The notes under the pieces were generated by a model. That model was not told the DNA's origin. It made no database searches and worked only from the letters and a program-made list of their open reading frames with translations. A DNA stretch of 36,174 nt from contig QLUB01000001.1 in NCBI GenBank assembly GCA_018725205.1, positions 1 through 36,174 on the forward strand, given 5' to 3'. This document shows positions 3,305 to 30,795 of the stretch, one piece after another (within the stretch, counting starts at the first letter, position 1; every line of letters begins with the position of its first letter). The stretch is from a candidate division NPL-UPA2 bacterium. GTDB taxonomy: Bacteria > Bacillota > UBA994. The position numbers and the translations under genes were made by a program.

Positions 3305-4004
3305 GCGCAGATCCTCCGGTGGAGTTGCTACCGCGAGCTGGCTTACCACATACTCCGACTTAGTGACGCTTCTCCTGTGTTTTTTTGTCCTGCTTTACTC
3401 TTTTTCCGCCATTGACGTGGTGAAATTTCGGCGGTTTCTTGCCTCTTTTCAGGGCGTCGGCGTACTTGACGGGGGTACGACACCGGATACAACCATCGTT
3501 ATGCCGGAGGAGAATCCAAACGAAGTAGCCACCGAGCAGCTTGGACCCTTCTGGGCGGATAGCGGCCGGATGATGACCCACGTACAGGAGTATCTCGAGT
3601 CGCAAGGGATAGAGGCCGAGGTGAGGGCGTTTCGTGAGGAGAGAGGGGTGCTGCTTGAGCTGCAGGATAGGGTGTTGTTTGACTCCGGGCAAGCTACTTT
3701 GCGTCAAGACGGACTCACACTCCTAGGTAAACTAGTTACTTTGTTTTCTGAGATGCCCAACGAAATCGCGGTGGAGGGGCATACCGACAATGTGCCTATT
3801 AACACCCCAGAGTACCCATCTAATTGGGAACTTTCCGCCGCACGTTCCGCACGAGTAGTGAGGTACTTTGTAGAAATTCGCGGGCTTACGCCGGAACGGT
3901 TTTCGGCCATTGGCTATGGGGAATTTAGGCCGGTAGATAGCAATGCCACCGCCGTAGGCCGCAGTCGGAATCGGCGGGTTGTATTTGTGATTCGGGGGAT
4001 ATAG
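3297..4004 (+). CDS. motB: flagellar stator protein MotB (OmpA-like peptidoglycan-binding C-terminus)
   Basis: Single N-terminal TM segment with the conserved Asp (TTYSDLVTLLLCFFVLL). C-terminus is GHTDNVPI...NWELSAARSARVVRYF...SRNRRVVFVI. The ATG overlaps the motA 3' end by 8 nt. Confidence 0.9.
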   Translation: MTRRRSSGGVATASWLTTYSDLVTLLLCFFVLLYSFSAIDVVKFRRFLASFQGVGVLDGGTTPDTTIVMPEENPNEVATEQLGPFWADSGRMMTHVQEYLESQGIEAEVRAFREERGVLLELQDRVLFDSGQATLRQDGLTLLGKLVTLFSEMPNEIAVEGHTDNVPINTPEYPSNWELSAARSARVVRYFVEIRGLTPERFSAIGYGEFRPVDSNATAVGRSRNRRVVFVIRGI

Positions 4005-4008
4005 CGGT

Positions 4009-4425
4009 ATGTTGAAAAAGATTATCTTAGCGGTGCTTGTTATAGCGGTTATTGTGCTAGGGGTGGTCTTCCGTGCACCCCTAGTCGCGATGGTGCGGGG
4101 GTTTGTTGCGCCTGCCCCGGGACTCGTTGTCTCTGCGGGGGGCGATTTTACGGTTAACTTGCTTGATCCCGGCATGCGGCGGTATCTCCGCGTGAACATT
4201 GCACTGCAGTATCTTGCTTCGCGGGCACTGGCAGAGGAACTAGTCGCACGCGAGCCGGAAATCCGGCATGCGGTGATTAAGGTGTTGCGCGCTAAGACCG
4301 TAGATGACCTGACTACGACGGAAAAGGTCGAAGGTCTGCGTCAGGAGTTACTCGCCGCGCTTAATGCGGTGCTCGAGCAGGGAGACATCACTAATATCTT
4401 CTTCGTGGACTTTGTGATCCAATAA
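4009..4425 (+). CDS. fliL: flagellar basal-body-associated protein FliL
   Basis: N-terminal TM segment, then FTVNLLDPGMRRYLRVNIALQY...EPEIRHAVIKVLRAKTVDDL...ITNIFFVDFVIQ, the usual FliL pattern. Position is after motAB. Confidence 0.78.
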   Translation: MLKKIILAVLVIAVIVLGVVFRAPLVAMVRGFVAPAPGLVVSAGGDFTVNLLDPGMRRYLRVNIALQYLASRALAEELVAREPEIRHAVIKVLRAKTVDDLTTTEKVEGLRQELLAALNAVLEQGDITNIFFVDFVIQ

Positions 4426-4772
4426 TGAATCCCATTACGTCTTTGATGCGCCTACTAGTGGCTCTTGTTGTTGTATTTGGCTTACTGCTTGGTCTGCGGT
4501 GGTACTTGTTGCGGCGAGTAACCTCCCTCTCTGCAACCCCTGTGGGTTTGCTGCGCGTGCGAGAGCGCGTGTGGCTTTCCGGCCGGATGCAAGCAGTAGT
4601 GCTCGAAGTAGGGGAAGAGTCCTTCTTGGTGTGTACGACAGACCACGCCGTGCAGGTGACACCTCTGGCCAAACTTCCGCCTCTATCACCTGTTGACCAC
4701 ACAGACCAACCGAATTTTGCCACCCATCTGGAGCATATGTTTACATTCTTACGACAGGGAGGCAAAAGGTAA
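4425..4772 (+). CDS. fliO: flagellar biosynthesis protein FliO/FliZ
   Basis: 115 aa with one N-terminal TM segment (LLVALVVVFGLLLGL), then LRVRERVWLSGRMQAVVLEVGEESFLVCTTDHAVQV. It sits immediately upstream of fliP with overlapping stop/start (TAATG). The call rests on context plus architecture. Confidence 0.6.
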   Translation: MNPITSLMRLLVALVVVFGLLLGLRWYLLRRVTSLSATPVGLLRVRERVWLSGRMQAVVLEVGEESFLVCTTDHAVQVTPLAKLPPLSPVDHTDQPNFATHLEHMFTFLRQGGKR

Positions 4773-5449
4773 TGTTCCCCATACCAGAGATTGGCCTACA
4801 AATCGGAGCTGCCACTTCTCCCGGTGAAGTAGTGGGGAGCGTCAGGCTCCTCATCTTGCTTACGGTCCTAAGTCTGGTCCCCGCTATTTTGGTGATGGTT
4901 ACTTCCTTTACGCGCATAGTCATTGTCTTGTCGTTCGTGCGAACTGCGGTCGCCGCACAGAATGTTCCCCCGAACCAGGTGCTAATTGGACTTGCGTTGT
5001 TTCTAACACTCTTTACTATGACCCCGACATTAACTCGCCTGCAGACTGAGGCGGTCACGCCGTATCTCGCGGGGGAGCTGTCGCAGGAGGCGGCCTTTGA
5101 GCGTGCGTCGGTCCCACTGCGGGAATTTATGCTCCCGCACACGCGCGAGGTGGACATCGCCTTGTTTCTAACTGCGACCGAAACGCCTGCTCCACCTGCG
5201 CCAGAGGACTTGTCACTGACAATACTTGTTCCTGCTTTTATGCTCAGTGAGTTGCGAACTGCGTTTGCCATGGGCGTAACGCTGTTTATTCCCTTTATGG
5301 TCATTGATATGGTAGTGGCGAGCACGCTTCTCTCGATGGGCATGTTTATGCTTCCACCTGTGACCATATCGCTGCCCTTTAAGCTGCTGCTTTTTGTTCT
5401 GGCCGATGGCTGGCATTTGGTTGCCAAGTCACTTCTTGAGAGCTTTTAG
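4772..5449 (+). CDS. fliP: flagellar type III export apparatus protein FliP
   Basis: LLTVLSLVPAILVMVTSFTRIVIVLSFVRTAVAAQNVPPNQVLIGLALFLTLFTMTP and AFMLSELRTAFAMGVTLFIPFMVIDMVVAS are FliP family signatures. Confidence 0.93.
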   Translation: MFPIPEIGLQIGAATSPGEVVGSVRLLILLTVLSLVPAILVMVTSFTRIVIVLSFVRTAVAAQNVPPNQVLIGLALFLTLFTMTPTLTRLQTEAVTPYLAGELSQEAAFERASVPLREFMLPHTREVDIALFLTATETPAPPAPEDLSLTILVPAFMLSELRTAFAMGVTLFIPFMVIDMVVASTLLSMGMFMLPPVTISLPFKLLLFVLADGWHLVAKSLLESF

Positions 5450-19805: not shown

Positions 19806-20855
19806 ATGGAGAGACGACAGGCCCTAGCGATAATAGCCAAAGTGCGCAGTGTGAGATACACCCAAGTGTCTCACCTTGACTTCGCTCACTTCCCCCTTTA
19901 CTCAGCTGACAGCTGGCATGAAGCGGGTTTGTCTCGTTCTGCTGCCCTAGCCGTTGTGAAGGCGTTTCAGGAACAGGACCATGACCCTCTGTTACAGGCA
20001 AGGGCGAGAGCGATCGTCATTGGTGACCCAGATTATCCACCTACCCTAAACCACCTCTACTCTCCGCCATTGGTCCTCTACGTGCGCGGGCAGCTTGAGG
20101 CAGAACGAGGGGTGGCGGTGGTGGGCACGCGCAAGGCTACGCCATACGGCAGGCAGGCAGTGGAAATGGTGGTGCCTGTGCTTGTTGCCGCTCTACACAC
20201 GGTGGTGAGCGGCCTAGCGCGCGGCATTGACACGTTAGCACATGGCGTTGCGCTGCGCTGTGGCGGGAAAACCATAGCCGTCATGGGTCGCGGCCTAGAC
20301 GCTATTTATCCCCGCGAAAACTCGCTGCTCGCGGAGAAGATTGTGGAACAGGGAGGAGCCCTAGTGAGTGAGTACAGGGAGGGAACTCCGCCGCTTGCTG
20401 GCCATTTCCCCGCGCGGAACCGGATCATTAGCGGTCTGTCGCGCATCTGTCTAGTTATAGAGGGCGATATGGGCAGCGGGGCGCTGATTACCGCCGAACA
20501 CGCGCTGGAGCAGGGGAAAGAGGTTTTGGCGGTGCCGGGCAGCATTTTCAGCCCGCAGAGCAGAGGCACCAATTACCTTATCGCACAGGGAGCGACACCA
20601 CTCCTTGATCCAAATGTAATCTACGAAACGTTAGGTACCCCCGCCAAGCCGCTAGAAGCCCCGACTACGCTTGAGCTCAGGCCTGAGGAATCGCTTGTTC
20701 TTATGGCACTAAGCACGGAACCCCTGAGTGTAGACGAAGTTTGTATGCATACGGGGCTTCCCGTAGCCGTGGCTGCTGCTGCTTTGACTGCGCTAGAGGT
20801 AGCAGAAGCAATTGAACGCCTGCCGGGTGGTGCCTACTTGCGGCTACGCGGATAA
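19806..20855 (+). CDS. dprA: DNA processing protein DprA (Smf)
   Basis: Contains VAVVGTRKATPYGRQA, VSGLARGIDTLAHGVAL and GHFPARNRIISGLS. I place the start at ATG 19806 behind SD GGAGGGAG. The track start at 19710 would run through the terminator. Confidence 0.9.
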   Translation: MERRQALAIIAKVRSVRYTQVSHLDFAHFPLYSADSWHEAGLSRSAALAVVKAFQEQDHDPLLQARARAIVIGDPDYPPTLNHLYSPPLVLYVRGQLEAERGVAVVGTRKATPYGRQAVEMVVPVLVAALHTVVSGLARGIDTLAHGVALRCGGKTIAVMGRGLDAIYPRENSLLAEKIVEQGGALVSEYREGTPPLAGHFPARNRIISGLSRICLVIEGDMGSGALITAEHALEQGKEVLAVPGSIFSPQSRGTNYLIAQGATPLLDPNVIYETLGTPAKPLEAPTTLELRPEESLVLMALSTEPLSVDEVCMHTGLPVAVAAAALTALEVAEAIERLPGGAYLRLRG

Positions 20856-20891
20856 AGACAGGGCTAAAGAGGCAAAGTGAAGTGTAAGTGA

Positions 20892-22976
20892 TTGACTGAG
20901 GTGATTTATCTGCCGAAATATCTCGTGATTGTGGAGTCTCCCGCAAAAGCCAAAACCATCACCAAGTACCTTGGCACCAAGTACGCCGTTAAAGCGTCCT
21001 ATGGACATCTGCGTGACTTGCCTAAGAGTCAGCTAGGTGTGGACATTGACAACGGTTTTGCTCCTAAGTACATAACCATTAGGGGTAAGGGTGATACGGT
21101 GAAAGAACTACGCGAAGCGGCCAAGAAAGCGGACAGGGTGTTTCTGGCCACAGACCCTGACCGAGAGGGCGAGGCTATTTCGTGGCACTTGGCGCATACC
21201 TTAGACCTTAACTTAGAGGGCGCGCTGCGTGTTACTTTTAATGAGATTACCCCGTCAGCTGTACAAAACGCCTTCAAACAACCCCGGCGCATTGACAAGG
21301 ATCTAGTGGACTCCCAACAGGCGAGACGAATCCTTGACCGTATCGTGGGGTACAAGCTGTCCCCGCTGCTGTGGGCAAAGGTAAGAAAAGGTCTCAGCGC
21401 AGGTCGCGTGCAGTCTGTGGCAGTGCGTCTGATTGTCGACCGCGAAAGGGAGATTGGGGCCTTTCAATCTAAGGAATACTGGACATTGCAGGCGTCGCTT
21501 AGACCTAGCCTAGCCAAGCCCTTTCAGGCGAAGTTGATCGGTCGCGAGCTTAGTAGCGAGGCGGAGGTCGACCATCTGTCCTCAGTGCTGCAAAGTCTGC
21601 CATTTGTAGTGAGGGCAGTAAAACAGACTGAGAAGGAACGCAAACCATCCCCACCCTTTAACACGAGCACCCTCCAGCAGGAGGCGGCAAAGCGGCTGGG
21701 GTTTTCTGCTAAACGCACCATGCGCATCGCTCAAACTCTCTATGAAGGGGTTGAGTTGGGGAAAGAGGGCGCAGTGGGACTGATAACCTACATGCGCACG
21801 GACAGCACGCGCCTCGCGGAGGAAGCCTTGTCAGCTGCGGAGGCCTATGTTAGAACGCACTTTGGGCCGCCTTACCACTCTCTACGGCAGTATGCGTCTA
21901 AGCGCGGCCCTGGCGTAAATTCACAGGATGCGCATGAGGCTATCCGCCCGTCCTATGTGGACCGCAAACCAGACGATCTCAAAGCAGCCTTGTCAACAGA
22001 GCAATACAGGCTGTATAAGCTGATTCACGACCGTTTCTTGGCCTCACAGATGTCTAACGCGAGGTTTGACACCGTGCAGGTGGACATCCAAGCAGGTGAT
22101 CACGCGTTTCGCGCGGTTGGCTCGCGCCTAGTATTCCCGGGTTACTTGGCACTGTACGAAGAAGAGAGCGACGATGAAGAGGCCAAAGAAGCCGGTGAAC
22201 TCCCTGTTTTACAAGTTGATCAGGCGTTGTCCCTCGTCAAACTTATGCCTAAACAGCACTTTACCCAGCCCCCACCCCGTTATACAGAAGCCTCGCTAAT
22301 TAAAGCACTAGAAGAGGGGGGAATTGGGAGGCCCAGCACCTATGCGCCCATCCTCGACACCATTCAGGCGCGCGGCTACGTAGGCAAAGAGCAGAAGCGC
22401 TTTATAGCCACCGAACTGGGACAGGTAGTAGTGGACATTCTGACTGAGCACTTTCCGGAACTAGTAGAAGTTAAGTTTACCGCCGCAATGGAGAACAAGC
22501 TTGATGCCATAGAGCATGGGCAAACTACAGCCGTAGACGTCTTGCGCGAGTTCTATGCGGTCTTTGCTGAGCAGTTGGAGAAAGCCCTAGTGGGTGTCGA
22601 AAAAATAGAGGTCGCAGACGAAGTGACGGACGAGATCTGCTCCCTCTGCGGTCGCAACATGGTCATAAAGGATGGGCGTTTCGGGAAGTTTCTTGCCTGC
22701 CCCGGCTTTCCGGCGTGTCGCAATACTAAGCCTTTACTTAAACCCATCGGGGTATCGTGCCCGGTATGCGCGGGCAACATCGTCGAACGTCGCAGCAAGC
22801 GGGGACGTGTGTTTTTTGGCTGTTCAAACTATCCTAACTGCGGCTTTGTGGTGTGGCAAAAACCCAATGAAACGCCGTGTTCGCGTTGCGGGGCCTTTAC
22901 TGTCGAGAAGAAGCGCCGTTCTGGTGAGGTCTACAGTGTCTGTGGCAACCCTGCCTGTGGAGCTGTTAACAAATGA
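20892..22976 (+). CDS. topA: DNA topoisomerase I
   Basis: Toprim motif LVIVESPAKAKTI. Active-site Tyr context is GLITYMRTDSTRL. Three C-terminal Cys4 zinc ribbons (CSLCG...CPGFPAC, CPVCAG...CSNYPNC, CSRCG...CGNPAC). The exact start (TTG 20892) is uncertain. Confidence 0.93.
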   Translation: MTEVIYLPKYLVIVESPAKAKTITKYLGTKYAVKASYGHLRDLPKSQLGVDIDNGFAPKYITIRGKGDTVKELREAAKKADRVFLATDPDREGEAISWHLAHTLDLNLEGALRVTFNEITPSAVQNAFKQPRRIDKDLVDSQQARRILDRIVGYKLSPLLWAKVRKGLSAGRVQSVAVRLIVDREREIGAFQSKEYWTLQASLRPSLAKPFQAKLIGRELSSEAEVDHLSSVLQSLPFVVRAVKQTEKERKPSPPFNTSTLQQEAAKRLGFSAKRTMRIAQTLYEGVELGKEGAVGLITYMRTDSTRLAEEALSAAEAYVRTHFGPPYHSLRQYASKRGPGVNSQDAHEAIRPSYVDRKPDDLKAALSTEQYRLYKLIHDRFLASQMSNARFDTVQVDIQAGDHAFRAVGSRLVFPGYLALYEEESDDEEAKEAGELPVLQVDQALSLVKLMPKQHFTQPPPRYTEASLIKALEEGGIGRPSTYAPILDTIQARGYVGKEQKRFIATELGQVVVDILTEHFPELVEVKFTAAMENKLDAIEHGQTTAVDVLREFYAVFAEQLEKALVGVEKIEVADEVTDEICSLCGRNMVIKDGRFGKFLACPGFPACRNTKPLLKPIGVSCPVCAGNIVERRSKRGRVFFGCSNYPNCGFVVWQKPNETPCSRCGAFTVEKKRRSGEVYSVCGNPACGAVNK

Positions 22977-25271: not shown

Positions 25272-26045
25272 ATGGGTCTATTAGAAAAAACACGCAAGCT
25301 GAACAAGGTTCTACAACAGGGAGCAGGGGACGCGGTACGATTCAGTGACTTAGCGCAGCTGTTTGGTCACGTCTTTCGCGCGAACACGTACATTCTCAAC
25401 ATCCGTGGCAAGCTTTTGGGGGTAGCGCTGATTGACGACTACGAGTGTGACTTGCTTAAGCGACATGTCCGCTCCGGCCGTTTCCCGGCGGACTACAACG
25501 ACAAAATACTCTCAATCACCGAGAGCAACATCAACTGTCGAGAAACCGAGAACTGCGTGTTTGACGCTTCGGAGTGCCAACATACCCGTAAGTTAACCAC
25601 CATAATTCCTGTCGTCGGCAGAGGTGAGAGGCTCGGCACAATGCTCATAGCCCGCTTTGATGAGCCTCTAAACGACGATGACGTGGCTTTGGCTGAATTT
25701 GGCGCAACCATTCTGGCTATGGAGATTCTCAGAGCGCGCCAAGAATTAGCCAGCCAAGAGTCAAGACAGCGCGCGGTAGTGGAGATGGCGGTGGATGCTC
25801 TGTCCTACTCCGAGCTAGAAGCCATTGAGCACATCATCCGTGAGCTGGGCACTGAGAGCGAGGGACTGCTGGTAGCCAGTAAAATTGCCGACCAGGCTGG
25901 CATCACCCGCTCAGTGATTGTGAACGCCCTGCGTAAGCTCGAAAGCGCCGGTGTCATTGAATCTCGCTCGCTGGGTATGAAGGGAACTTACATCAAAGTT
26001 CTCAACAACAAGCTCCTTGAAGAGATGGCCAAGCAGGGGCATTAG
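25272..26045 (+). CDS. codY: GTP/BCAA-sensing global regulator CodY
   Basis: N-terminus MGLLEKTRKLNKVLQ. C-terminal wHTH is ASKIADQAGITRSVIVNALRKLESAGVIESRSLGMKGTYIKVLN. ATG 25272 follows SD AGGAGG. The track start at 25152 lies inside xerC. Confidence 0.93.
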   Translation: MGLLEKTRKLNKVLQQGAGDAVRFSDLAQLFGHVFRANTYILNIRGKLLGVALIDDYECDLLKRHVRSGRFPADYNDKILSITESNINCRETENCVFDASECQHTRKLTTIIPVVGRGERLGTMLIARFDEPLNDDDVALAEFGATILAMEILRARQELASQESRQRAVVEMAVDALSYSELEAIEHIIRELGTESEGLLVASKIADQAGITRSVIVNALRKLESAGVIESRSLGMKGTYIKVLNNKLLEEMAKQGH

Positions 26046-26055
26046 GACAAGCTCC

Positions 26056-27027
26056 TTAAATTCGCAGTGAGCGCTGTAAGGCATTCTGCAGCAAATGGTT
26101 TATTAGTTGCTCATAGGATAGCCCTCCTGCAAGCGCAGCTTTGGGGTAGTCGCTATAGCCCGGCTCAATGCCGGGCAATGTGTTCACGTCAATAACATAG
26201 GGCACCCCACTGGCGTCAACACGTACATCAATGCGGGCGTAATCGCGGCAGCCGAGGGCGTTGAAGGCGTCAAGAACAACATCTCCTATCCTTTGTAGCA
26301 GTGCGGGGTGAATGTCCGCCGGGCACTTGGTTTCTACTGCATCGCGTGACTTTACTTGTTGGGTGTAGAAATCACCGCTGCCAGTAAACATAATTTCTAC
26401 AGGTGGGAGAATTCGCGCGATGGGTGCTTCAAGTACTCCTACGGTAAATTCGCGTCCGGCAACAAATTCCTCGACGAGAGCAGGCTGCCTAAACTGCTGA
26501 ATCACTTGCTCGGAGATAGTTCTTGCTTCACGGGGGGATAAAGCTACGCTCTTGGCTGAGATGCCAATGCTTGAGCCCTCGCGTTCCGGCTTGACAATAA
26601 CTGGGTAACTCAGTCCAATTGGCAAATCGTCGTCAAATTTATCTATTACCACAAAGGCAGGTGTGGGCACGCCATGAAAAGACAGCACCTTTTTAGCCAG
26701 TGGCTTGTATAGTGCTAGTGTGTGAGCTGTCTGACCGCTGCCCGTGAACGGGATTTTGGAGAGCTCTAAGAGGCCTGCAATTTGCGGCTGACTGGACTTA
26801 TCGTTGATCCCGGTGCAGTTGTTAAAGATCACGTCAGGGCGCAACTCGAACAGCTTGTTAAGTAAATTGAAGTCGCCAGGAATTAGATATGGGTAGTGCC
26901 CCAACGCTTCAATTGCCCGTTTAAGAGCGTCGTTGGTTTTGCCCAGTTGCTCGGCACCGTGGGGGTTAGCTATGCCGTGTGGGTGGTTTGCTTCTACTGT
27001 GTAGACGATTGCTATGCGGAGGCTCAT
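26056..27027 (-). CDS. D-alanine--D-alanine ligase family ATP-grasp enzyme (substrates unknown)
   Basis: C-terminal half is EEFVAGREFTVGVLE...CRDYARIDVRVDASGVPYVIDVNTLPGIEPGYSDYPKAALAGGLSYEQLINHLL, the Ddl-type ATP-grasp pattern. The N-terminus lacks the canonical Ddl GG-S-EHEVS motif. SD GGAAGGAG lies 8 nt upstream of the ATG on the minus strand. Confidence 0.8.
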   Translation of the reverse strand: MSLRIAIVYTVEANHPHGIANPHGAEQLGKTNDALKRAIEALGHYPYLIPGDFNLLNKLFELRPDVIFNNCTGINDKSSQPQIAGLLELSKIPFTGSGQTAHTLALYKPLAKKVLSFHGVPTPAFVVIDKFDDDLPIGLSYPVIVKPEREGSSIGISAKSVALSPREARTISEQVIQQFRQPALVEEFVAGREFTVGVLEAPIARILPPVEIMFTGSGDFYTQQVKSRDAVETKCPADIHPALLQRIGDVVLDAFNALGCRDYARIDVRVDASGVPYVIDVNTLPGIEPGYSDYPKAALAGGLSYEQLINHLLQNALQRSLRI

Positions 27028-27181
27028 TCTACCGGCTCCTTCCTAATCCTTGGTAAGTTAATTTCTAGTGCGGCCTAACATTGTCCTGCCTAGAGCTATA
27101 GAAACCTGTAAGGAGTGGATTAAGAATTTTCAGTGAGAGTCTGCCTTAGTCTGACTATAACTAAGAAGGAGGAGTAGTGTA

Positions 27182-28336
27182 GTGTTAGCTCCTATCCAAC
27201 CCTCGCGAAAGTCGAGATTTCGTCAAAAGACAGCTAAGCAGTTGTTGCCAAGAATAGCGGTACTTGGCGCAGGCCATGGCGGGCAGGGTATGGCTGGACA
27301 CTTGGGCCTTATGGGTTGTGAAGTATCGCTGTACAATCGCAGTGCTGACCGCATCGCGCCATTTGCCATGGCCAAGAGCATTGAACTCACTGGGCAAATA
27401 GAGGGCTTTGGTGCTCTAGAGCAAGTCACTACAGATATGGAATCGGCCATTAAAGACGCGGCGCTGATTATGGTTGTGGTGCCGGCAAACGGTCATGCGG
27501 CGATAGCTCGAGCTTGCGCCCCGTACCTACGCGACGGGCAGATTGTGGTGTTGCACCCCGGTCGTACCGGCGGTGCACTAGAGTTTTTTAATATTATTCG
27601 TGAGCACGGGTGTACCGCTAATGTAATTATCTCGGAAGCATCCACTCTGATCTATGCTTGCCGTATGTTAAATCCTGCGAAAGTACATGTTTTTGGCATT
27701 AAGAACGTTATCCCAGTAGCCGCTATCCCTAGCTACCGCACCCCAGAGGTGATTAACAAGTTAAACATCATCTACCCTCAGTTCGTGCCCGGGGATAACG
27801 TTTTGAAGACTAGTCTGGACAATATCGGCGCTATCTTTCACCCCGCACTCACGATTCTCAATGCAGGGCGCATCGAATCGACACACGGCGAGTTTGATTT
27901 CTATATGGACGGTGCTACGCCGGCGGTAGCGCGCGTTCTGGAGACAATGGACATGGAAAGAGTAGCTGTGGCGGCAGCTTTAGGAATTCGGGCAATGACG
28001 GCCCGGGAATGGCTCTATATCGCCTATGACGCCGCAGGCAGAACGCTCTACGAAGCTATGCAGGCCAATATAGGGTATAAGGGGATTACTGCTCCACCTA
28101 CGACCTTGATGCGGTATATCACCGAAGATGTCCCCATGAGTCTGGTGCCCATGTCCTCACTAGGGCATCACCTCAACGTGCCCACCCCCATGATTGACAA
28201 CATGATCCATCTCGCCTCGGTCATTCACGATACCGACTACTGGGCTGAAGGGAGAACGGTGGAGACTATGGGGCTAGCTGAGCTATCGGTAAAGCAAATT
28301 CGGAAACTAGTGCTGGAGGGTACGCTTGATGTCTAA
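27182..28336 (+). CDS. NAD(P)-dependent opine (octopine/nopaline) dehydrogenase family oxidoreductase
   Basis: Rossmann motif IAVLGAGHGGQGMAGHLGLMGCEVSLYNR. The C-terminal region IFHPALTILNAGRIESTHGEFDFYMDGATPAVARVLETMDMERVAVAAALGI...REWL fits the Octopine_DH domain pattern. Strong SD AAGGAGGAG at 27166-27174 with GTG start 27182. A 24-aa basic extension precedes the Rossmann fold. Confidence 0.8.
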   Translation: MLAPIQPSRKSRFRQKTAKQLLPRIAVLGAGHGGQGMAGHLGLMGCEVSLYNRSADRIAPFAMAKSIELTGQIEGFGALEQVTTDMESAIKDAALIMVVVPANGHAAIARACAPYLRDGQIVVLHPGRTGGALEFFNIIREHGCTANVIISEASTLIYACRMLNPAKVHVFGIKNVIPVAAIPSYRTPEVINKLNIIYPQFVPGDNVLKTSLDNIGAIFHPALTILNAGRIESTHGEFDFYMDGATPAVARVLETMDMERVAVAAALGIRAMTAREWLYIAYDAAGRTLYEAMQANIGYKGITAPPTTLMRYITEDVPMSLVPMSSLGHHLNVPTPMIDNMIHLASVIHDTDYWAEGRTVETMGLAELSVKQIRKLVLEGTLDV

Positions 28337-29960
28337 GCGAATCCTTGGTGCTGCTATTGGGAGCTGCGTACATGTCGCGGGCATAGTCTCTTTCCTGCAG
28401 ATAGCTGAGCAGCTGGGAAGACGCACCCATTTTCTTGGGCCTGCCACTCCAATCAATGCCTTGATTGCAGCGAGCCTAGAGTTGAAACCTGACTTAATTG
28501 CCGTGAGCTACCGCCTAAGCCCCGAGGCGGCAGGAGCCTTGCTAAACGAATTAAAGGCATCGCTTGCAGCGGCAGGCCTCGCCGGTACGGAGCTTGTGTT
28601 TGGCGGAACACTGCCCGTAGCGGCAGTCGCTCGTGAAGCCGATATGTTCTCGCGTATTTTTTCAGGTGAGGACGGACCAGTCGAAGTCTTAGCTTACTTG
28701 CGTGGCGAAAAAGTAGGGGATGCGGTGACGAGGCCGCCGCAGAGCCTCTTAGCAAGGATTAATGCCAAGTCCCCCTATCCGTTGATTCGGCATCACTTCG
28801 GCTTGTCTGACCTGCAGGCTACTATCGAAGGTGTAAAAGCAATTGCCGGAGCAAAAGTGCTCGACGTTCTATCGCTCGGTCCCGACCAGAACGCCCAATA
28901 TGCTTTTTTCCGGCCACAGGAAATGGACCCCCTTCAGCACGGAGCGGGGGGAGTGCCGGTGCGCACTAGTTCCGACCTAGAGAGTATCTATGCCGCGTCG
29001 CGTACAGGCAACTATCCCTTGCTGCGCTGCTATTCCGGCACGCGCGACCTCTTGAAATGGGCTGAAATGAGCCTAGAGACGATCAATAACGCTTGGGCAG
29101 CCGTCCCGTTGTGCTGGTACAACGTGTTGGACGGCAGATCCAACAGATCTCCCAGCGAAAGCATTACCGAGAACCAGAGGGTTATGGCCTGGCATGCCGA
29201 GCGCGGGATACCTGTTGAGGTGAACGAGGCGCATCACTGGAGCCTGCGGGACGCTCCGGATGTTGTGGCCGTGGCAGCGGCTTACTTAGCCGCCCTTAAT
29301 GCCAAGCGCATGGGAGTCGGAACTTACGTAGCGCAGTATATGTTTAACACCCCCGTGGGAACCTCGTATGTAGCCGACCTTGCCAAAATGTTGGCCAAAC
29401 AAATTTTGATCGAAGCCTTACACGATGACAGTTTTGCCTCTGTGCGCCAGGTGCGGACGGGGCTGATGAGCCTTTCCTCCAACATGGCAGTGGCTAAAGG
29501 GCAGTTAGCATCATCCATTGCGTTGGCACTTTCCCTTAGACCTCAAATCGTCCATGTCGTAGGGTACTCGGAAGCCAATTTCGCCGCCACGCCCGAGGTG
29601 GTTGCCGAAAGCTGCAATATCATCCACGGAGTGGTACGCAACTACCTCTTCGGTGCGCCGAATCCTAGTACGGACCCGAATGTGGCAGCTAGGCGCGACT
29701 TCCTAGTGGCTGAGGTTACGCTTTTGCTCGAGGCCATAGCTGAGCTTGGCAATGGTCCTGACTCTTTGACTGACCCGAGGACGATCGCCCGGGCGATTGA
29801 AGTCGGGTATCTAGATGCTCCTCACCTTAAAGGCAATCCCTACGCACTTGGCGTCGTGAAGACTAAGATGCTAGATGGGGCCTGTATGGCCATTGATGAG
29901 CAAAATCGCCCACTCGGTGAGGCCGAGCGTACGCAGCGGGTTTCATTTCGCTTGCCTTAA
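28329..29960 (+). CDS. fusion protein: N-terminal B12-binding-like (MutS-like) Rossmann domain plus C-terminal TIM barrel resembling glutamate mutase E subunit
   Basis: The N-terminus KRILGAAIGSCVHVAGIV...PDLIAVSYRL...ELVFGGTL aligns by eye with glutamate mutase S (TIVLGVIGSDCHAVGNKI...ADAILVSSLYG...LLYVGGNI). C-terminal segments PLLRCYSGTRDLLKWAE, LCWYNV and AAAYLAALNAKRMGVGTYVAQYMFN resemble GlmE segments recalled from memory. The ATG at 28329 overlaps the stop of the upstream dehydrogenase (TAA 28334-28336). SD GGAGGG at 28315-28320. Confidence 0.55.
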   Translation: MSKRILGAAIGSCVHVAGIVSFLQIAEQLGRRTHFLGPATPINALIAASLELKPDLIAVSYRLSPEAAGALLNELKASLAAAGLAGTELVFGGTLPVAAVAREADMFSRIFSGEDGPVEVLAYLRGEKVGDAVTRPPQSLLARINAKSPYPLIRHHFGLSDLQATIEGVKAIAGAKVLDVLSLGPDQNAQYAFFRPQEMDPLQHGAGGVPVRTSSDLESIYAASRTGNYPLLRCYSGTRDLLKWAEMSLETINNAWAAVPLCWYNVLDGRSNRSPSESITENQRVMAWHAERGIPVEVNEAHHWSLRDAPDVVAVAAAYLAALNAKRMGVGTYVAQYMFNTPVGTSYVADLAKMLAKQILIEALHDDSFASVRQVRTGLMSLSSNMAVAKGQLASSIALALSLRPQIVHVVGYSEANFAATPEVVAESCNIIHGVVRNYLFGAPNPSTDPNVAARRDFLVAEVTLLLEAIAELGNGPDSLTDPRTIARAIEVGYLDAPHLKGNPYALGVVKTKMLDGACMAIDEQNRPLGEAERTQRVSFRLP

Positions 29961-30096: not shown

Positions 30097-30795
30097 ATGG
30101 CAGTTATCAGCATGAAACAATTACTCGAAGCGGGCGTGCACTTTGGTCATCAAACGCGCCGCTGGAACCCCAAGATGGCTCCATTCATCTTTATGGAGCG
30201 TAACGGCATCTACATCATCGACCTGCAGAAGACCGTGCGCAAATTAGATGAGGCTTACGCGTTCGTGAAGAGCGTTGTAGCCAATGGAGAAAACATCATG
30301 TTTGTCGGGACAAAGAAGCAGGCGCAGGAGGCAGTCGCCGAAGAAGCTCGTCGCTGCAACATGTTCTTCGTGAACCAGCGCTGGCTGGGCGGCACGCTAA
30401 CTAATTTCCAAACAATTGAAAAGCGTATCAAGCGTTTGCATGAGCTTGAGCGCATGGAAGCCGATGGCACGTTTGACGTTCTTCCCAAAAAAGAGGTCAT
30501 CAACTTGCGCAAGGAAATGGACAGGTTAGAGAAGTTCCTTGGCGGTATCCGGAACATGCGCCAGCTTCCAGGGGCGCTATTTGTCATTGATCCCCGCAAG
30601 GAGCGAAATGCCATAGCCGAGGCGCGCAGGCTTCGTATTCCCATCGTGGCCATCGTTGACACTAACTGCGATCCTGACGAAATAGACTACATTATTCCGG
30701 GGAATGATGACGCCATCCGCGCGGTTAGGCTGTTAACTGCGACCATGGCCGATGCTGTCCTCGAAGCTAGGCAGGGCGAGCAGTTAGCGGAGTAG
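30097..30795 (+). CDS. rpsB: 30S ribosomal protein S2
   Basis: [32 protein letters not shown] is the canonical S2 N-terminus. SD AAGGAGGTG at 30082-30090. The track start at 30022 is an upstream in-frame extension. Confidence 0.95.

What the first reader, a model, noticed from the sequence alone, without database searches (positions are those of the whole stretch)
26056..29960. Three-gene ligase / opine-dehydrogenase / mutase-like locus between codY and rpsB: candidate uncharacterised small-molecule pathway
Everything else in the window belongs to deeply conserved Firmicute blocks: fla/che, dprA-topA-trmFO-xerC-codY, and rpsB-tsf-pyrH-frr-uppS-cdsA-dxr-rseP. Exactly at the junction of two of these blocks sit three genes unrelated to either.
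- A minus-strand Ddl-family ATP-grasp ligase.
- A plus-strand, translationally coupled pair: an opine-dehydrogenase-family oxidoreductase and a 543-aa fusion of a B12-binding-like domain with a glutamate-mutase-E-like barrel.

In B. subtilis the codY|rpsB slot holds the fla/che operon, so this is a known rearrangement point.

A skeleton mutase, an ATP-grasp amino-acid ligase and an NAD(P) dehydrogenase together mirror the logic of pyrrolysine biosynthesis: PylB mutase, PylC Ddl-like ligase, PylD dehydrogenase. Here the mutase and dehydrogenase would be non-homologous to PylB and PylD. The dehydrogenase family also recalls opine-type metallophore synthesis (CntM-type enzymes).

No transporter, regulator or immunity gene is present. 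I know of no characterised pathway with this trio.
Basis: partly seen in the sequence, partly recalled or inferred. Interest (0 to 1): 0.75.

Follow-up and report, generated by a model that had tools for sequence, protein, structure and literature searches.

The report
Opine dehydrogenase–B12 mutase cassette with ligase
The three genes are real, and two of them (an acidic-amino-acid opine dehydrogenase and a fused B12 glutamate-mutase-like enzyme) form a widespread, uncharacterised two-gene cassette that in many bacteria is switched by a c-di-AMP riboswitch, pointing to an unknown small-molecule pathway tied to osmotic or cell-envelope homeostasis.

Summary
The window holds a divergent Ddl-fold ATP-grasp gene (26056-27027, minus strand), an opine dehydrogenase (ODH, 27182-28336) and a 543-aa B12-domain/GlmE-like-barrel fusion (28329-29960) that overlaps the ODH stop codon by 8 nt.

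The conserved unit is the ODH-fusion pair, not the trio. The pair is adjacent in about 74 of 80 fusion-anchored genomes and about 60 of 69 ODH-anchored metagenome contigs, across many phyla.

The ODH belongs to the L-Asp/L-Glu + pyruvate 'mODH' subclass characterised in vitro in 2024. One characterised enzyme, mODH-48, is itself encoded in an asnB-ODH-fusion operon.

The fusion's best structural match is glutamate mutase E. MutL/GlmL reactivase-family genes (9 loci) and adenosyltransferase genes (2 loci) are sometimes adjacent. It fails the glutamate-mutase residue tests.

The third gene varies: an AsnB-family amidotransferase in about one third of loci, or the non-canonical Ddl-like ligase in about 10-15%, in at least six different arrangements. 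The two never occur together.

A c-di-AMP riboswitch directly precedes the cassette in 18 loci, though not in this window.

The best hypothesis is a c-di-AMP-controlled pathway making an opine-type derivative of an acidic amino acid. The product is unknown and no paper describes the pairing.

The parts
26056..27027 (-). Non-canonical Ddl-fold ATP-grasp ligase (323 aa), a facultative accessory gene of the cassette
   Evidence: Pfam Dala_Dala_lig_C E=3.6e-36. Best NCBIfam Ddl model scores 172.7 against a cut-off of 243. The ATP-grasp catalytic residues are kept, but DdlB Glu15 is Gln and Tyr216 is Ser. Homologues of at least 59% identity appear to share contigs with the closest fusion homologues, judged by matching contig lengths.
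27028..27181 (.). 154-nt divergent intergenic region with ribosome-binding sites for both transcription units; no riboswitch
   Evidence: Sequence read. No Rfam hit at gathering score. No hit to the c-di-AMP covariance model R1. The promoter scan is uninformative.
27182..28336 (+). NADPH-type opine dehydrogenase of the acidic-amino-acid (mODH) subclass, 384 aa
   Evidence: Octopine_DH E=5.1e-50. Matches 1BG6 CENDH at E=2.5e-80. It is 48-54% identical to characterised mODH-43 to -48.
27563..27565 (+). ODH Arg128, equivalent to ArODH position 111, the acidic-substrate determinant
   Evidence: Alignment to 1BG6. Arg in 71 of 71 fusion-linked ODHs. Determinant defined by mutagenesis in PMC10787698.
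27827..27841 (+). ODH Gly216 (equivalent to ArODH 198) through the catalytic His220 (equivalent to His202)
   Evidence: Gly in 70 of 71, His in 71 of 71. Role from PMC10787698.
28329..29960 (+). B12-binding domain fused to a GlmE-like TIM barrel (543 aa), a putative AdoCbl-dependent mutase; its start overlaps the ODH stop by 8 nt
   Evidence: The family has at least 7,795 clusters at 90% identity and at least 588 matches among GTDB species genomes.
28329..28703 (+). N-terminal Rossmann-like B12-binding domain (about residues 1-125)
   Evidence: hhalign to E. coli GlmS E=9.6e-6, probability 83%. PDB profile hits are to corrinoid and B12 domains.
28365..28382 (+). CVHVAG, a variant of the DxHxxG base-off/His-on motif with Cys13 in place of Asp; His15 and Gly18 are invariant
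   Evidence: Alignment. CxHxxG in 68 of 79 and 108 of 119 family members, DxHxxG in about 8%.
28746..29957 (+). GlmE-like (beta-alpha)8 barrel (about residues 140-543)
   Evidence: Foldseek best hit 1CB7_B, E=6e-17. Collinear hhalign to E. coli GlmE, fusion residues 206-524 against GlmE 121-431, E=0.0075.

Best explanation
The locus is a small-molecule pathway cassette whose conserved core is a translationally coupled pair.

1. An NADPH-type opine dehydrogenase reductively condenses an acidic L-amino acid (L-Asp or L-Glu type) with pyruvate. The product is an N-(1-D-carboxyethyl) amino acid.
2. A single-chain adenosylcobalamin-dependent mutase is built like a GlmS-GlmE fusion. It rearranges the carbon skeleton of the same acidic scaffold. 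I think the more likely substrate is the N-substituted (opine) form of a glutamate or 3-methylaspartate-type skeleton. The alternative is that it acts on the free amino acid before the dehydrogenase.
3. A third, lineage-variable enzyme then uses ATP to turn one of the product's carboxylates into an amide. Here that enzyme is the divergent Ddl-fold ATP-grasp ligase; elsewhere it is an AsnB-family amidotransferase.

In many lineages the whole operon sits behind a c-di-AMP OFF-riboswitch. The product is therefore most likely made when c-di-AMP is low. That suggests an anionic or amidated opine-type solute, or K+ counter-ion, serving osmotic or turgor homeostasis.

What is shown and what is inferred:
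- Shown: gene architecture, family assignments, co-localisation, riboswitch linkage.
- Shown by others in vitro: the Asp/Glu + pyruvate activity of this ODH subclass.
- Inferred: AdoCbl use, the mutase substrate, the order of steps, the role of the ligase, and the physiological role.
For: Pair conservation:
- ODH is immediately upstream of the fusion in about 74 of 80 species-level genomes, typically overlapping by 1-4 nt.
- In the reverse test, 37 of 69 ODH-anchored contigs have the fusion directly downstream and about 13 have it directly upstream. About 11 have a 32-35% identical sister subfamily, and 1 has ODH-MutL-fusion.

ODH chemistry:
- E=2.5e-80 to CENDH.
- Arg111, Gly198, Arg35 and the catalytic His/Arg/Asp are present in 70-71 of 71 fusion-linked ODHs.
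- These residues were shown by mutagenesis to confer L-Asp specificity and NADPH use (PMC10787698).
- The 99%-identical copy of characterised mODH-48 lies in an asnB-ODH-fusion operon.

Mutase:
- The best PDB fold match is GlmE, followed by other AdoCbl isomerases.
- The B12 domain aligns to GlmS.
- MutL/GlmL-family genes (37% identical to E. coli GlmL) are adjacent in 9 loci. CobA-type adenosyltransferase genes are adjacent in 2.

Third enzyme:
- Asn_synthase is the top neighbour family.
- The Ddl-like gene recurs in at least six architectures.
- The two never share a locus.

Aspartate context: thrA-like, thrC, thrB and asnB lie beside the pair in Mesotoga.

Regulation:
- 18 of 20 c-di-AMP riboswitch hits in about 2.1 Mb sit directly upstream of the first cassette gene, whichever gene that is.
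- The riboswitch is an OFF switch tied to osmotic-stress and cell-wall genes (PMC5575661).
Against: - No product, substrate or cofactor has been shown for the fusion.
- Its Pfam scores are below threshold.
- The canonical Asp of DxHxxG is Cys in about 90% of members.
- This window has no riboswitch, and most loci lack one.
- The mODHs are slow in vitro (kcat/KM 0.04-1.5 per s per mM for L-Asp), so L-Asp may not be the native substrate.
- No opine-type osmolyte is known in bacteria, to my knowledge.
- Canonical murD, VanY and PBP5-type genes occur near some loci. Cell-wall metabolism is the other main theme of the c-di-AMP riboswitch regulon, so a cell-envelope role fits about as well on regulatory grounds.
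- More than half of the loci show no third gene nearby.
Confidence: 0.42

Rival explanations
1. Cell-wall or D-amino-acid pathway. The opine dehydrogenase creates a D-configured centre from pyruvate. Together with the mutase and the Ddl-fold ligase, the cassette would supply or attach an unusual (D- or branched) acidic amino acid for peptidoglycan precursors or their remodelling.
For: - The ligase has the Ddl fold with an intact catalytic core.
- Canonical murD follows the cassette in L001, L011, L083 and L084.
- VanY and an Ala_racemase_N protein flank the trio in Clostridium sp. 'deep sea'.
- PBP5-type carboxypeptidase lies nearby in the Thermoanaerobacter lineage.
- Cell-wall genes are a main class of the c-di-AMP riboswitch regulon.
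- AsnB-family enzymes amidate peptidoglycan in some Gram-positive bacteria (from my own knowledge).
Against: - The pair is equally conserved in Bacteroidota, Ignavibacteria, Thermotogota and archaeal MAGs, which have very different envelopes.
- The Ddl residues that bind D-Ala1 are replaced.
- The murD, VanY and PBP5 neighbours are each confined to one lineage.
- Most loci have no cell-wall gene nearby.
Confidence: 0.15
2. Catabolic or fermentative role. The cassette would be a variant glutamate/aspartate fermentation route, or an opine-forming redox sink (pyruvate + amino acid + NAD(P)H), as in invertebrate anaerobiosis. The mutase would feed or drain the pool.
For: - The hosts are almost all strict anaerobes and amino-acid fermenters.
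- GlmE-like mutases classically open glutamate fermentation (PMC4682846).
- ODH reactions are reversible.
Against: - No methylaspartase, mesaconase or citramalate lyase lies near any of about 165 loci.
- The GlmE substrate residues are not conserved in the best alignment.
- The ODH carries the NADPH-type signature.
- The partners are biosynthetic-type ATP-dependent amide formers, and c-di-AMP control is not typical of fermentation genes.
Confidence: 0.13
3. Pyrrolysine-like or metallophore-like specialised metabolite. The mutase, ligase and dehydrogenase would build a non-canonical amino acid or an opine-type metal chelator.
For: - The three enzyme classes match the PylB/PylC/PylD logic.
- ODH-family enzymes finish staphylopine-type metallophores (from my own knowledge).
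- The predicted products are polycarboxylates that could chelate metals.
Against: - No radical-SAM, PylD, CntL-like, tRNA or exporter genes recur nearby.
- No tRNA or other RNA family was found in the window.
- The ligase is absent from about 85% of loci.
- The ODH is of the CENDH/mODH type, not the CntM type.
- The very broad, highly conserved distribution (66% mean column identity across phyla) looks like core physiology rather than a specialised metabolite.
Confidence: 0.07
4. Three unrelated housekeeping genes that happen to be neighbours at a rearrangement point between codY and rpsB.
For:
- The database names the ligase 'D-alanine--D-alanine ligase B'.
Against: - The pair is adjacent in about 90% of more than 140 informative loci from many phyla.
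- The ligase is non-canonical. It recurs beside the pair in multiple orders and under the same riboswitch.
- Relatives carry the trio in entirely different flanks.
Confidence: 0.02

Closest known systems
Metagenomic opine dehydrogenases mODH-45/47/48/49/55/582 (Telek et al. 2024, PMC10787698) and Arthrobacter CENDH/ArODH (PDB 1BG6)
   Same: - Same Pfam family and fold.
- 48-54% identical to the mODHs and E=2.5e-80 to 1BG6.
- Same catalytic His, Arg and Asp.
- Same Arg111/Gly198 pair that confers L-Asp/L-Glu preference, and the same Arg35 NADPH signature.
- mODH-48 itself lies in an asnB-ODH-fusion operon.
   Different: The paper treated the enzymes as biocatalysts. The sections I read say nothing about physiological role, genomic context or a B12 partner. 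ArODH prefers hydrophobic amino acids and NADH.
Adenosylcobalamin-dependent glutamate mutase GlmS/GlmE with reactivase GlmL/MutL (Clostridium; E. coli O157 ECs_0762-0764)
   Same: - B12-binding Rossmann domain plus a TIM barrel whose best structural match is GlmE.
- Shared motifs GTxD, (S/W)YN and G(V/L)LDxP.
- MutL-family genes adjacent in 9 loci.
   Different: - A natural single-chain S-E fusion.
- CxHxxG instead of DxHxxG in about 90% of members.
- About 18-20% identity; below the Pfam and NCBIfam cut-offs.
- GlmE Arg149, Glu171 and Tyr181 align to Tyr, Ala and Asp (low confidence).
- Never found with methylaspartase; always with an ODH.
D-alanine-D-alanine ligase (DdlB) and other Ddl-fold ATP-grasp ligases such as PylC
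   Same: ATP-grasp fold. Lys97, Lys144, Glu187, Lys215, Arg255, Asp257, Asn272 and Ser281 are invariant, and Glu270 is kept as Glu or Asp.
   Different: - Scores 145-208 bits against the Ddl cut-off of 243.
- Glu15 is Gln, Tyr216 is Ser/Glu/Thr and Leu282 is Asp.
- The N-terminal domain lacks the Ddl signature.
- It is encoded beside ODH-fusion cassettes, or beside a DctM dicarboxylate permease.
c-di-AMP (ydaO/kimA) riboswitch regulon
   Same: A canonical RF00379 aptamer (97-118 bits against a gathering score of 38) on the operon strand, directly upstream of the cassette in 18 loci.
   Different: ODH/B12-mutase genes are not, to my knowledge, a described member of this regulon. The window itself lacks the riboswitch.
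Osmolyte pathways built from a radical amino-acid mutase plus a capping enzyme (N-epsilon-acetyl-beta-lysine, AblA/AblB) or from ATP-grasp plus AsnB-like amidotransferase (NAGGN, Ngg/AsnO); recalled from memory
   Same: The logic is the same: isomerise or cap a common amino acid so that it becomes metabolically inert, then neutralise carboxylates by ATP-dependent amidation. The accessory enzyme families (AsnB-like, ATP-grasp, and GNAT in L165) match those of NAGGN synthesis.
   Different: - None of the proteins is an orthologue.
- The mutase is B12-dependent, not radical-SAM.
- The capping step would be reductive alkylation with pyruvate.
- The resemblance is analogy only and was not tested here.

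Membership tests
Opine dehydrogenase, acidic-amino-acid 'mODH' subclass (PF02317) | Rossmann GxGxxG/A motif plus the Octopine_DH helical domain above the Pfam threshold | tested here: met
   GAGHGG motif present. PF02317 scores 169.8 bits against a cut-off of 30.
Opine dehydrogenase, acidic-amino-acid 'mODH' subclass (PF02317) | Catalytic His-Asp dyad, conserved Arg and active-site Trp | tested here: met
   His220, Arg311, Asp316 and Trp277 are present, and each is conserved in 71 of 71 fusion-linked ODHs.
Opine dehydrogenase, acidic-amino-acid 'mODH' subclass (PF02317) | Arg at ArODH position 111 and Gly at 198 (L-Asp/L-Glu preference); Arg at 35 (NADPH) | tested here: met
   Arg128, Gly216 and Arg53. 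Determinants defined in PMC10787698.
Opine dehydrogenase, acidic-amino-acid 'mODH' subclass (PF02317) | Measured reductive condensation of L-Asp or L-Glu with pyruvate | not testable with these tools
   Shown only for homologues that are 48-54% identical.
AdoCbl-dependent glutamate mutase (GlmS + GlmE) | B12-binding domain with the DxHxxG...SxL...GG motifs | tested here: inconclusive
   His15, Gly18, the Ser60...Leu63 stretch and Gly92-Gly93 are present, but the Asp is Cys. Pfam scores 31.1 bits against 32.1.
AdoCbl-dependent glutamate mutase (GlmS + GlmE) | GlmE-type TIM-barrel fold | tested here: met
   Foldseek best hit 1CB7_B, E=6e-17, TMt 0.67.
AdoCbl-dependent glutamate mutase (GlmS + GlmE) | Family HMM thresholds (PF06368; NCBIfam MutS models) | tested here: not met
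   23.1 bits against 26.6 for PF06368. 15-16 bits against 110-136 for the MutS models.
AdoCbl-dependent glutamate mutase (GlmS + GlmE) | Glutamate-binding and catalytic residues Arg149, Glu171 and Tyr181 (roles and numbering recalled from memory) | tested here: not met
   They align to Tyr235, Ala257 and Asp268 in a collinear hhalign of low confidence (E=0.0075, probability 5%).
AdoCbl-dependent glutamate mutase (GlmS + GlmE) | Operon with methylaspartate ammonia-lyase and GlmL | tested here: not met
   No Mal, GlmE or GlmS homologue in about 165 loci. GlmL-like genes occur in 9 loci but not in the window.
D-alanine-D-alanine ligase | ATP-grasp catalytic core | tested here: met
   Lys97, Lys144, Glu187, Lys215, Arg255, Asp257, Asn272 and Ser281 are invariant, and Glu270 is kept as Glu or Asp.
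D-alanine-D-alanine ligase | NCBIfam Ddl score cut-offs, and the D-Ala-binding residues Glu15 and Tyr216 | tested here: not met
   172.7 bits against 243. Glu15 is Gln and Tyr216 is Ser.
Pyrrolysine biosynthesis (PylB/PylC/PylD) | Radical-SAM lysine mutase PylB, PylC ligase and PylD dehydrogenase homologues | tested here: not met
   No radical-SAM or PylD domain is present. No PylC model is among the 25 best NCBIfam matches of the ligase. The resemblance is one of logic only.
Cnt-type opine metallophore system | Nicotianamine-synthase-like CntL plus exporter and importer beside the ODH | tested here: not met
   None appears among the recurrent neighbour families. The ODH is of the CENDH/mODH type.
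c-di-AMP riboswitch regulon | RF00379 aptamer upstream of the operon | tested here: not met
   Absent from the window. Present upstream of homologous cassettes in 18 loci.

The most novel reading that the evidence does not exclude
The cassette makes a so-far unknown class of bacterial metabolite: an opine-type, N-(1-carboxyethyl) derivative of a rearranged acidic amino acid, optionally amidated. It would be produced under low c-di-AMP as a compatible solute or K+ counter-ion. The fusion protein would be the first adenosylcobalamin-dependent carbon-skeleton mutase that works on a secondary-amine (opine) substrate, using a Cys-x-His variant of the B12-binding motif.
Probability: 0.25. Interest if true: 0.9.

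Novelty: new variant of a known kind. Interest (0 to 1): 0.76.

Why it matters
- **A new B12 enzyme family.** It would add a large, phylogenetically broad family (at least 7,795 clusters at 90% identity; at least 588 matches among GTDB species genomes) to the short list of adenosylcobalamin-dependent isomerases. It has an unusual CxHxxG motif and an obligate opine-dehydrogenase partner.
- **A physiological setting for the mODHs.** These enzymes have so far been studied only as biocatalysts, with low activity on L-Asp. The native substrate may be the mutase's product or precursor.
- **A new biosynthetic member of the c-di-AMP riboswitch regulon.** This would link the second messenger to acidic-amino-acid and pyruvate metabolism in anaerobes.
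- **A new reason for cobamide dependence** in Thermotogota, Clostridia, Bacteroidota and candidate phyla.
- **Annotation repair.** Database names such as 'methionine synthase', 'D-alanine--D-alanine ligase B', 'glycerol-3-phosphate dehydrogenase' and 'NADP transhydrogenase subunit alpha' are misleading for these families.

Tried and rejected
- **Sequence searches of the fusion against the PDB** found only the B12 domain. The barrel's relationship needed the structure model.
- **Residue-level structural superposition on GlmE** was not possible because no coordinates were available. I used hhalign against E. coli GlmE instead, and its confidence is low.
- **B12 riboswitch.** None was found in the window or in the 15 relative loci scanned with Rfam.
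- **Promoter and terminator scans** of the locus were no better than shuffled sequence.
- **Bulk Pfam scan of upstream neighbours** showed no common partner. NadB/NadC, YheO regulators and methyltransferases are each lineage-specific.
- **TldD/PmbA as a partner.** I considered it (Aminicenantes loci, and beside the Anoxybacter ligase), but it looks like lineage synteny.
- **Canonical glutamate fermentation** was rejected because no methylaspartase, GlmS or GlmE is nearby.
- **The codY|rpsB location** was rejected as meaningful.
- **Balanced schemes.** I worked through Glu + pyruvate giving Asp + 2-oxobutyrate, and routes to beta-alanine, D-Ala or D-Glu via opines. I did not adopt them. They need non-1,2 shifts or an ODH regiochemistry that is not supported.
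- **Literature searches** for any ODH + cobalamin or mutase pairing found nothing relevant.

Full report
**1. Observation**

- The minus-strand gene (26056-27027, 323 aa) matches Dala_Dala_lig_C (E=3.6e-36).
- The first plus-strand gene (27182-28336, 384 aa) matches Octopine_DH (E=5.1e-50).
- The second plus-strand gene has weak, sub-threshold matches to B12-binding (31.1 bits against a cut-off of 32.1) and Met_asp_mut_E (23.1 against 26.6).

Reading the junctions gave these details:

- The ODH starts at GTG 27182, behind AAGGAGGAG.
- The fusion starts at ATG 28329, behind GGAGG. That gives 543 aa, identical to database protein P0001.
- The fusion's start overlaps the ODH stop codon (TAA 28334-28336) by 8 nt.
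- The ligase starts divergently at 27027, across a 154-nt spacer.

CodY ends at 26045 and rpsB starts near 30097. The contig comes from a 'candidate division NPL-UPA2 bacterium' MAG.

**2. The fusion protein**

It belongs to a very large, strongly conserved family.

- At least 7,795 clusters at 90% identity were found, from a capped list.
- Mean column identity is 66% across phyla.
- An exhaustive search of 50%-identity representatives found 1,070 hits at E<=0.001 and 264 at E<=1e-30.

Databases name it 'cobalamin B12-binding domain-containing protein', 'methylmalonyl-CoA mutase cobalamin-binding subunit' or 'methionine synthase'.

An AlphaFold model is confident (pLDDT 87, pTM 0.80). Its best PDB match is glutamate mutase epsilon, 1CB7_B (E=6e-17, TMt 0.67). 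Ornithine 4,5-aminomutase, lysine 5,6-aminomutase and the acyl-CoA mutases follow. All are adenosylcobalamin isomerases.

The N-terminal domain aligns to genuine E. coli GlmS (E=9.6e-6). It keeps the His and Gly of DxHxxG, plus the Ser...Leu and Gly-Gly elements. The Asp, however, is Cys in 86-91% of members and Asp in about 8%.

The barrel aligns collinearly with E. coli GlmE over about 300 residues, on shared motifs. The statistics are weak (E=0.0075). In that alignment GlmE Arg149, Glu171 and Tyr181 correspond to Tyr235, Ala257 and Asp268. The roles and numbering of those GlmE residues are recalled from memory.

I therefore file it as GlmE-like in fold and probably in radical chemistry. I do not file it as a glutamate mutase.

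Genomic context gives independent support for AdoCbl chemistry:

- A MutL/GlmL-family gene (PF13941, E=1e-148; 37% identical to E. coli GlmL) is adjacent in 9 loci.
- A CobA-type adenosyltransferase is adjacent in 2 loci, one of them archaeal.
- MutL is described as the reactivating chaperone of glutamate mutase in PMC4682846.

**3. The dehydrogenase**

It is a close relative of Arthrobacter N-(1-D-carboxyethyl)-L-norvaline dehydrogenase, 1BG6 (E=2.5e-80).

Telek et al. 2024 (PMC10787698) characterised six hot-spring metagenomic ODHs.

- Unlike ArODH, they prefer L-Asp and L-Glu (also cysteate and homocysteate), with pyruvate and mostly NADPH.
- They form N-(1-D-carboxyethyl)-L-Asp.
- Mutagenesis showed that Arg at ArODH position 111 together with Gly at 198 sets this preference. 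Arg at 35 marks NADPH use.

The window's ODH has Arg128, Gly216 and Arg53 at these positions, plus the catalytic His220, Arg311 and Asp316. Across 71 full-length ODHs encoded beside a fusion gene, these residues are present in 70-71.

The published mODH sequences are 48-54% identical to the window's ODH. Each is 49-61% identical to its best match among the other fusion-linked ODHs.

The 99%-identical copy of mODH-48, the kinetically best enzyme, lies on a contig that reads Asn_synthase, then mODH-48, then the B12/MutE fusion. The sections of the paper I read do not discuss genomic context or physiological role.

**4. Co-localisation**

*Anchoring on the fusion* (80 species-level genomes):

- The ODH is the gene immediately upstream, on the same strand, in about 74 of 80.
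- The exceptions are truncated contigs, one rearranged locus and one locus without an ODH.
- The median gap is about -1 nt.

*Anchoring on the ODH* (80 metagenome contigs, 69 with room downstream):

- 37 have the fusion directly downstream.
- About 13 have it directly upstream.
- About 11 have a sister subfamily of about 620 aa. It is 32% identical over its full length and also overlaps the ODH stop codon.
- 1 has ODH-MutL-fusion.
- About 7-8 have none.

Hosts include Bacillota, Bacteroidota, Ignavibacteria, Aminicenantes, Armatimonadota, Thermotogota and Dehalococcoidia, plus archaeal MAGs. Cultured hosts include Caldanaerobacter, Thermoanaerobacter, Fervidicola, Anoxybacter, Maledivibacter, Rosettibacter, Mesotoga and Pseudothermotoga.

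In Anoxybacter the pair stands alone.

**5. The third gene**

De novo clustering and bulk Pfam scans of the flanking ORFs show one widely recurring neighbour, an AsnB-family glutamine amidotransferase.

- It occurs in 29 of 80 genome loci and about 27 of 80 metagenome loci.
- It appears before, after or divergent from the pair.
- Some copies pass NCBIfam asparagine-synthase cut-offs; others are borderline or below.

The Ddl-like ligase is rarer: 10 of 80 genome loci and 4 of 80 metagenome loci. It appears in at least six arrangements:

- Divergent from the pair: the window, L001, and Clostridium sp. 'deep sea' L165.
- Ddl, ODH, fusion: L013, L073, L079.
- ODH, fusion, Ddl: L006, L009, L086, and an overlapping operon in Pseudothermotoga L171.
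- Fusion, Ddl, one other gene, ODH: L023.
- Fusion, ODH, Ddl: L150.
- ODH2, Ddl, 4HBT, MutL, ODH, fusion: L167.

All these ligases fall below the Ddl cut-offs (145-208 bits against 243). They keep the ATP-grasp catalytic core. They replace DdlB Glu15 and Tyr216, by Gln and Ser in the window protein.

The ligase is not obligatorily linked:

- In Anoxybacter its homologue lies 160 kb from the pair.
- In Tissierella it sits beside a DctM dicarboxylate permease.

AsnB-like and Ddl-like genes never share a locus. That suggests they are alternatives for one step, an ATP-dependent conversion of a carboxylate to an amide.

Within the window's own lineage the trio appears conserved. Ligase homologues of at least 59% identity sit on contigs whose lengths match those carrying the closest fusion homologues. 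The flanks differ, however, and no other locus has codY or rpsB.

**6. Regulation**

A canonical c-di-AMP riboswitch (RF00379, 97-118 bits against a gathering score of 38) lies directly upstream of the ODH in Caldanaerobacter, three other Thermoanaerobacter-lineage loci, Fervidicola and L078. It also lies upstream of the six-gene operon of L167.

I built a covariance model from these hits and searched all loci, about 2.1 Mb. It gave 20 hits. Eighteen are on the operon strand, immediately upstream of the first cassette gene. That first gene is:

- the ODH in most loci;
- the Ddl-like gene in L079;
- asnB in the Armatimonadota locus L004;
- ODH2 in L167;
- the ODH of sister-subfamily cassettes in L100 and L118.

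So the accessory genes are co-regulated with the pair.

The ydaO-class riboswitch is an OFF switch associated with osmotic-stress and cell-wall genes and with ion channels (PMC5575661). The window itself has no riboswitch.

**7. Interpretation**

*Shown here:*

- a conserved two-gene ODH/B12-mutase-like cassette;
- the ODH's membership of the acidic-amino-acid subclass;
- a facultative ATP-dependent amide-forming third gene;
- c-di-AMP riboswitch control in many lineages;
- aspartate-family neighbours in Mesotoga (aspartokinase/homoserine dehydrogenase, thrC, thrB and asnB).

*Inferred:*

- The ODH makes (or cleaves) an N-(1-carboxyethyl) derivative of an Asp/Glu-type amino acid.
- The fusion uses AdoCbl to rearrange the same scaffold.
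- The ligase or amidotransferase amidates a carboxylate.
- The product serves osmotic or turgor homeostasis, for example as a solute or K+ counter-ion made when c-di-AMP is low.

I lean towards the mutase acting on the N-substituted amino acid. In the best available alignment, the residue at the position of GlmE Glu171 is a small residue, and I recall Glu171 as interacting with the substrate's free amino group. This is weak evidence. The mODHs' preference for Asp over Glu fits the opposite order equally well: Glu to 3-methylaspartate first, then opine formation.

*Rivals:*

- A cell-wall or D-amino-acid role. Support comes from the Ddl fold, canonical murD in one lineage, VanY and PBP5 neighbours, and the cell-wall arm of the riboswitch regulon.
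- A fermentative or redox-sink role.
- Chance adjacency, which is effectively excluded.

**8. Novelty**

The full-text searches found no paper that links an opine dehydrogenase with adenosylcobalamin or a glutamate-mutase-like protein. The library does not cover all journals.

The enzyme superfamilies are known. What appears undescribed is the fused CxHxxG mutase family, its near-obligate pairing with an acidic-amino-acid ODH, and its place in the c-di-AMP riboswitch regulon.

Noticed in passing
L020:8666-8798; L015, L057 and L080:8671-8802; L037:7313-7487; L078:8100-8233; L079:7419-7551; L167:5588-5712; L004:250-382; L006 and L009:8760-8895; L022:8364-8499; L033:8499-8634; L086:5845-5980; L088:5762-5893; L100:1453-1590; L118:5740-5879; L135:1088-1254: c-di-AMP (ydaO-class) riboswitches sit directly upstream of homologous ODH-fusion cassettes in many lineages. 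ODH and B12-mutase genes are not, to my knowledge, a described member of this regulon. The window itself has none.
   Followed up: yes
L090:1166-3019; L108:5711-7600; L094:2045-3907; L109:7092-8945; also P0281-P0344-type proteins: There is a sister subfamily of the fusion, about 617-629 aa. It is 32% identical over its full length, has insertions and gives no Pfam hit. It also overlaps the stop codon of an mODH-type ODH and is often followed by asnB.
   Followed up: partly
P0270 (1266 aa), P0271 (1226 aa), P0276 (826 aa), P0255 (863 aa): Much longer proteins contain the fusion's barrel region in several matched stretches. They may be larger multidomain fusions. I did not examine them.
   Followed up: no
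L029, L051, L052, L066, L068, L074 (downstream of the fusion); L163:4034-6803: A TldD/PmbA metallopeptidase pair follows the cassette in Aminicenantes. In Anoxybacter it lies next to the unlinked Ddl-like homologue. This may be lineage synteny or a weak functional hint.
   Followed up: partly
L171:13332-15080: Trk-type K+ uptake genes (TrkA_N, TrkA, TrkH) and glutamine synthetase lie within about 1-5 kb downstream of the ODH-fusion-Ddl operon in Pseudothermotoga. This is compatible with a K+ or osmotic link but could be coincidence.
   Followed up: no
L078:20453-20586 and 20760-20896 (minus strand): Two further c-di-AMP riboswitches lie in tandem on the opposite strand of the same contig. Their target genes were not examined.
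   Followed up: no
L167:3660-3955 and 3979-5397: A group II intron (D1-D4 RNA domains plus an RVT_1/GIIM reverse transcriptase) is inserted just upstream of the riboswitch-controlled six-gene operon.
   Followed up: no
window 26001-28000: G+C dips to 0.505-0.514 over the ligase and ODH genes, against 0.513-0.587 in the rest of the window. Relatives carry the trio in unrelated flanks, so the cassette may have been acquired or relocated.
   Followed up: partly
window 26056-29960, and homologues: Database names are misleading. The fusion is called 'methionine synthase' or 'methylmalonyl-CoA mutase cobalamin-binding subunit'. The ligase is called 'D-alanine--D-alanine ligase B' or 'VanA'. The ODH is called 'glycerol-3-phosphate dehydrogenase' or 'NADP transhydrogenase subunit alpha'.
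   Followed up: yes
L170:1226-6718: In Mesotoga prima the pair sits next to an aspartokinase/homoserine-dehydrogenase fusion, threonine synthase, homoserine kinase and a divergent asnB. This is an aspartate-family context.
   Followed up: partly
L001:11681-13117; L011:8914-10311; L083:4588-5946; L084:10485-11852: A murD gene that passes the NCBIfam equivalog cut-off lies directly downstream of the cassette (after MutL in three of these loci), away from any visible dcw cluster. This occurs in the Bacillota lineage nearest the window. The window itself has rpsB there instead.
   Followed up: partly
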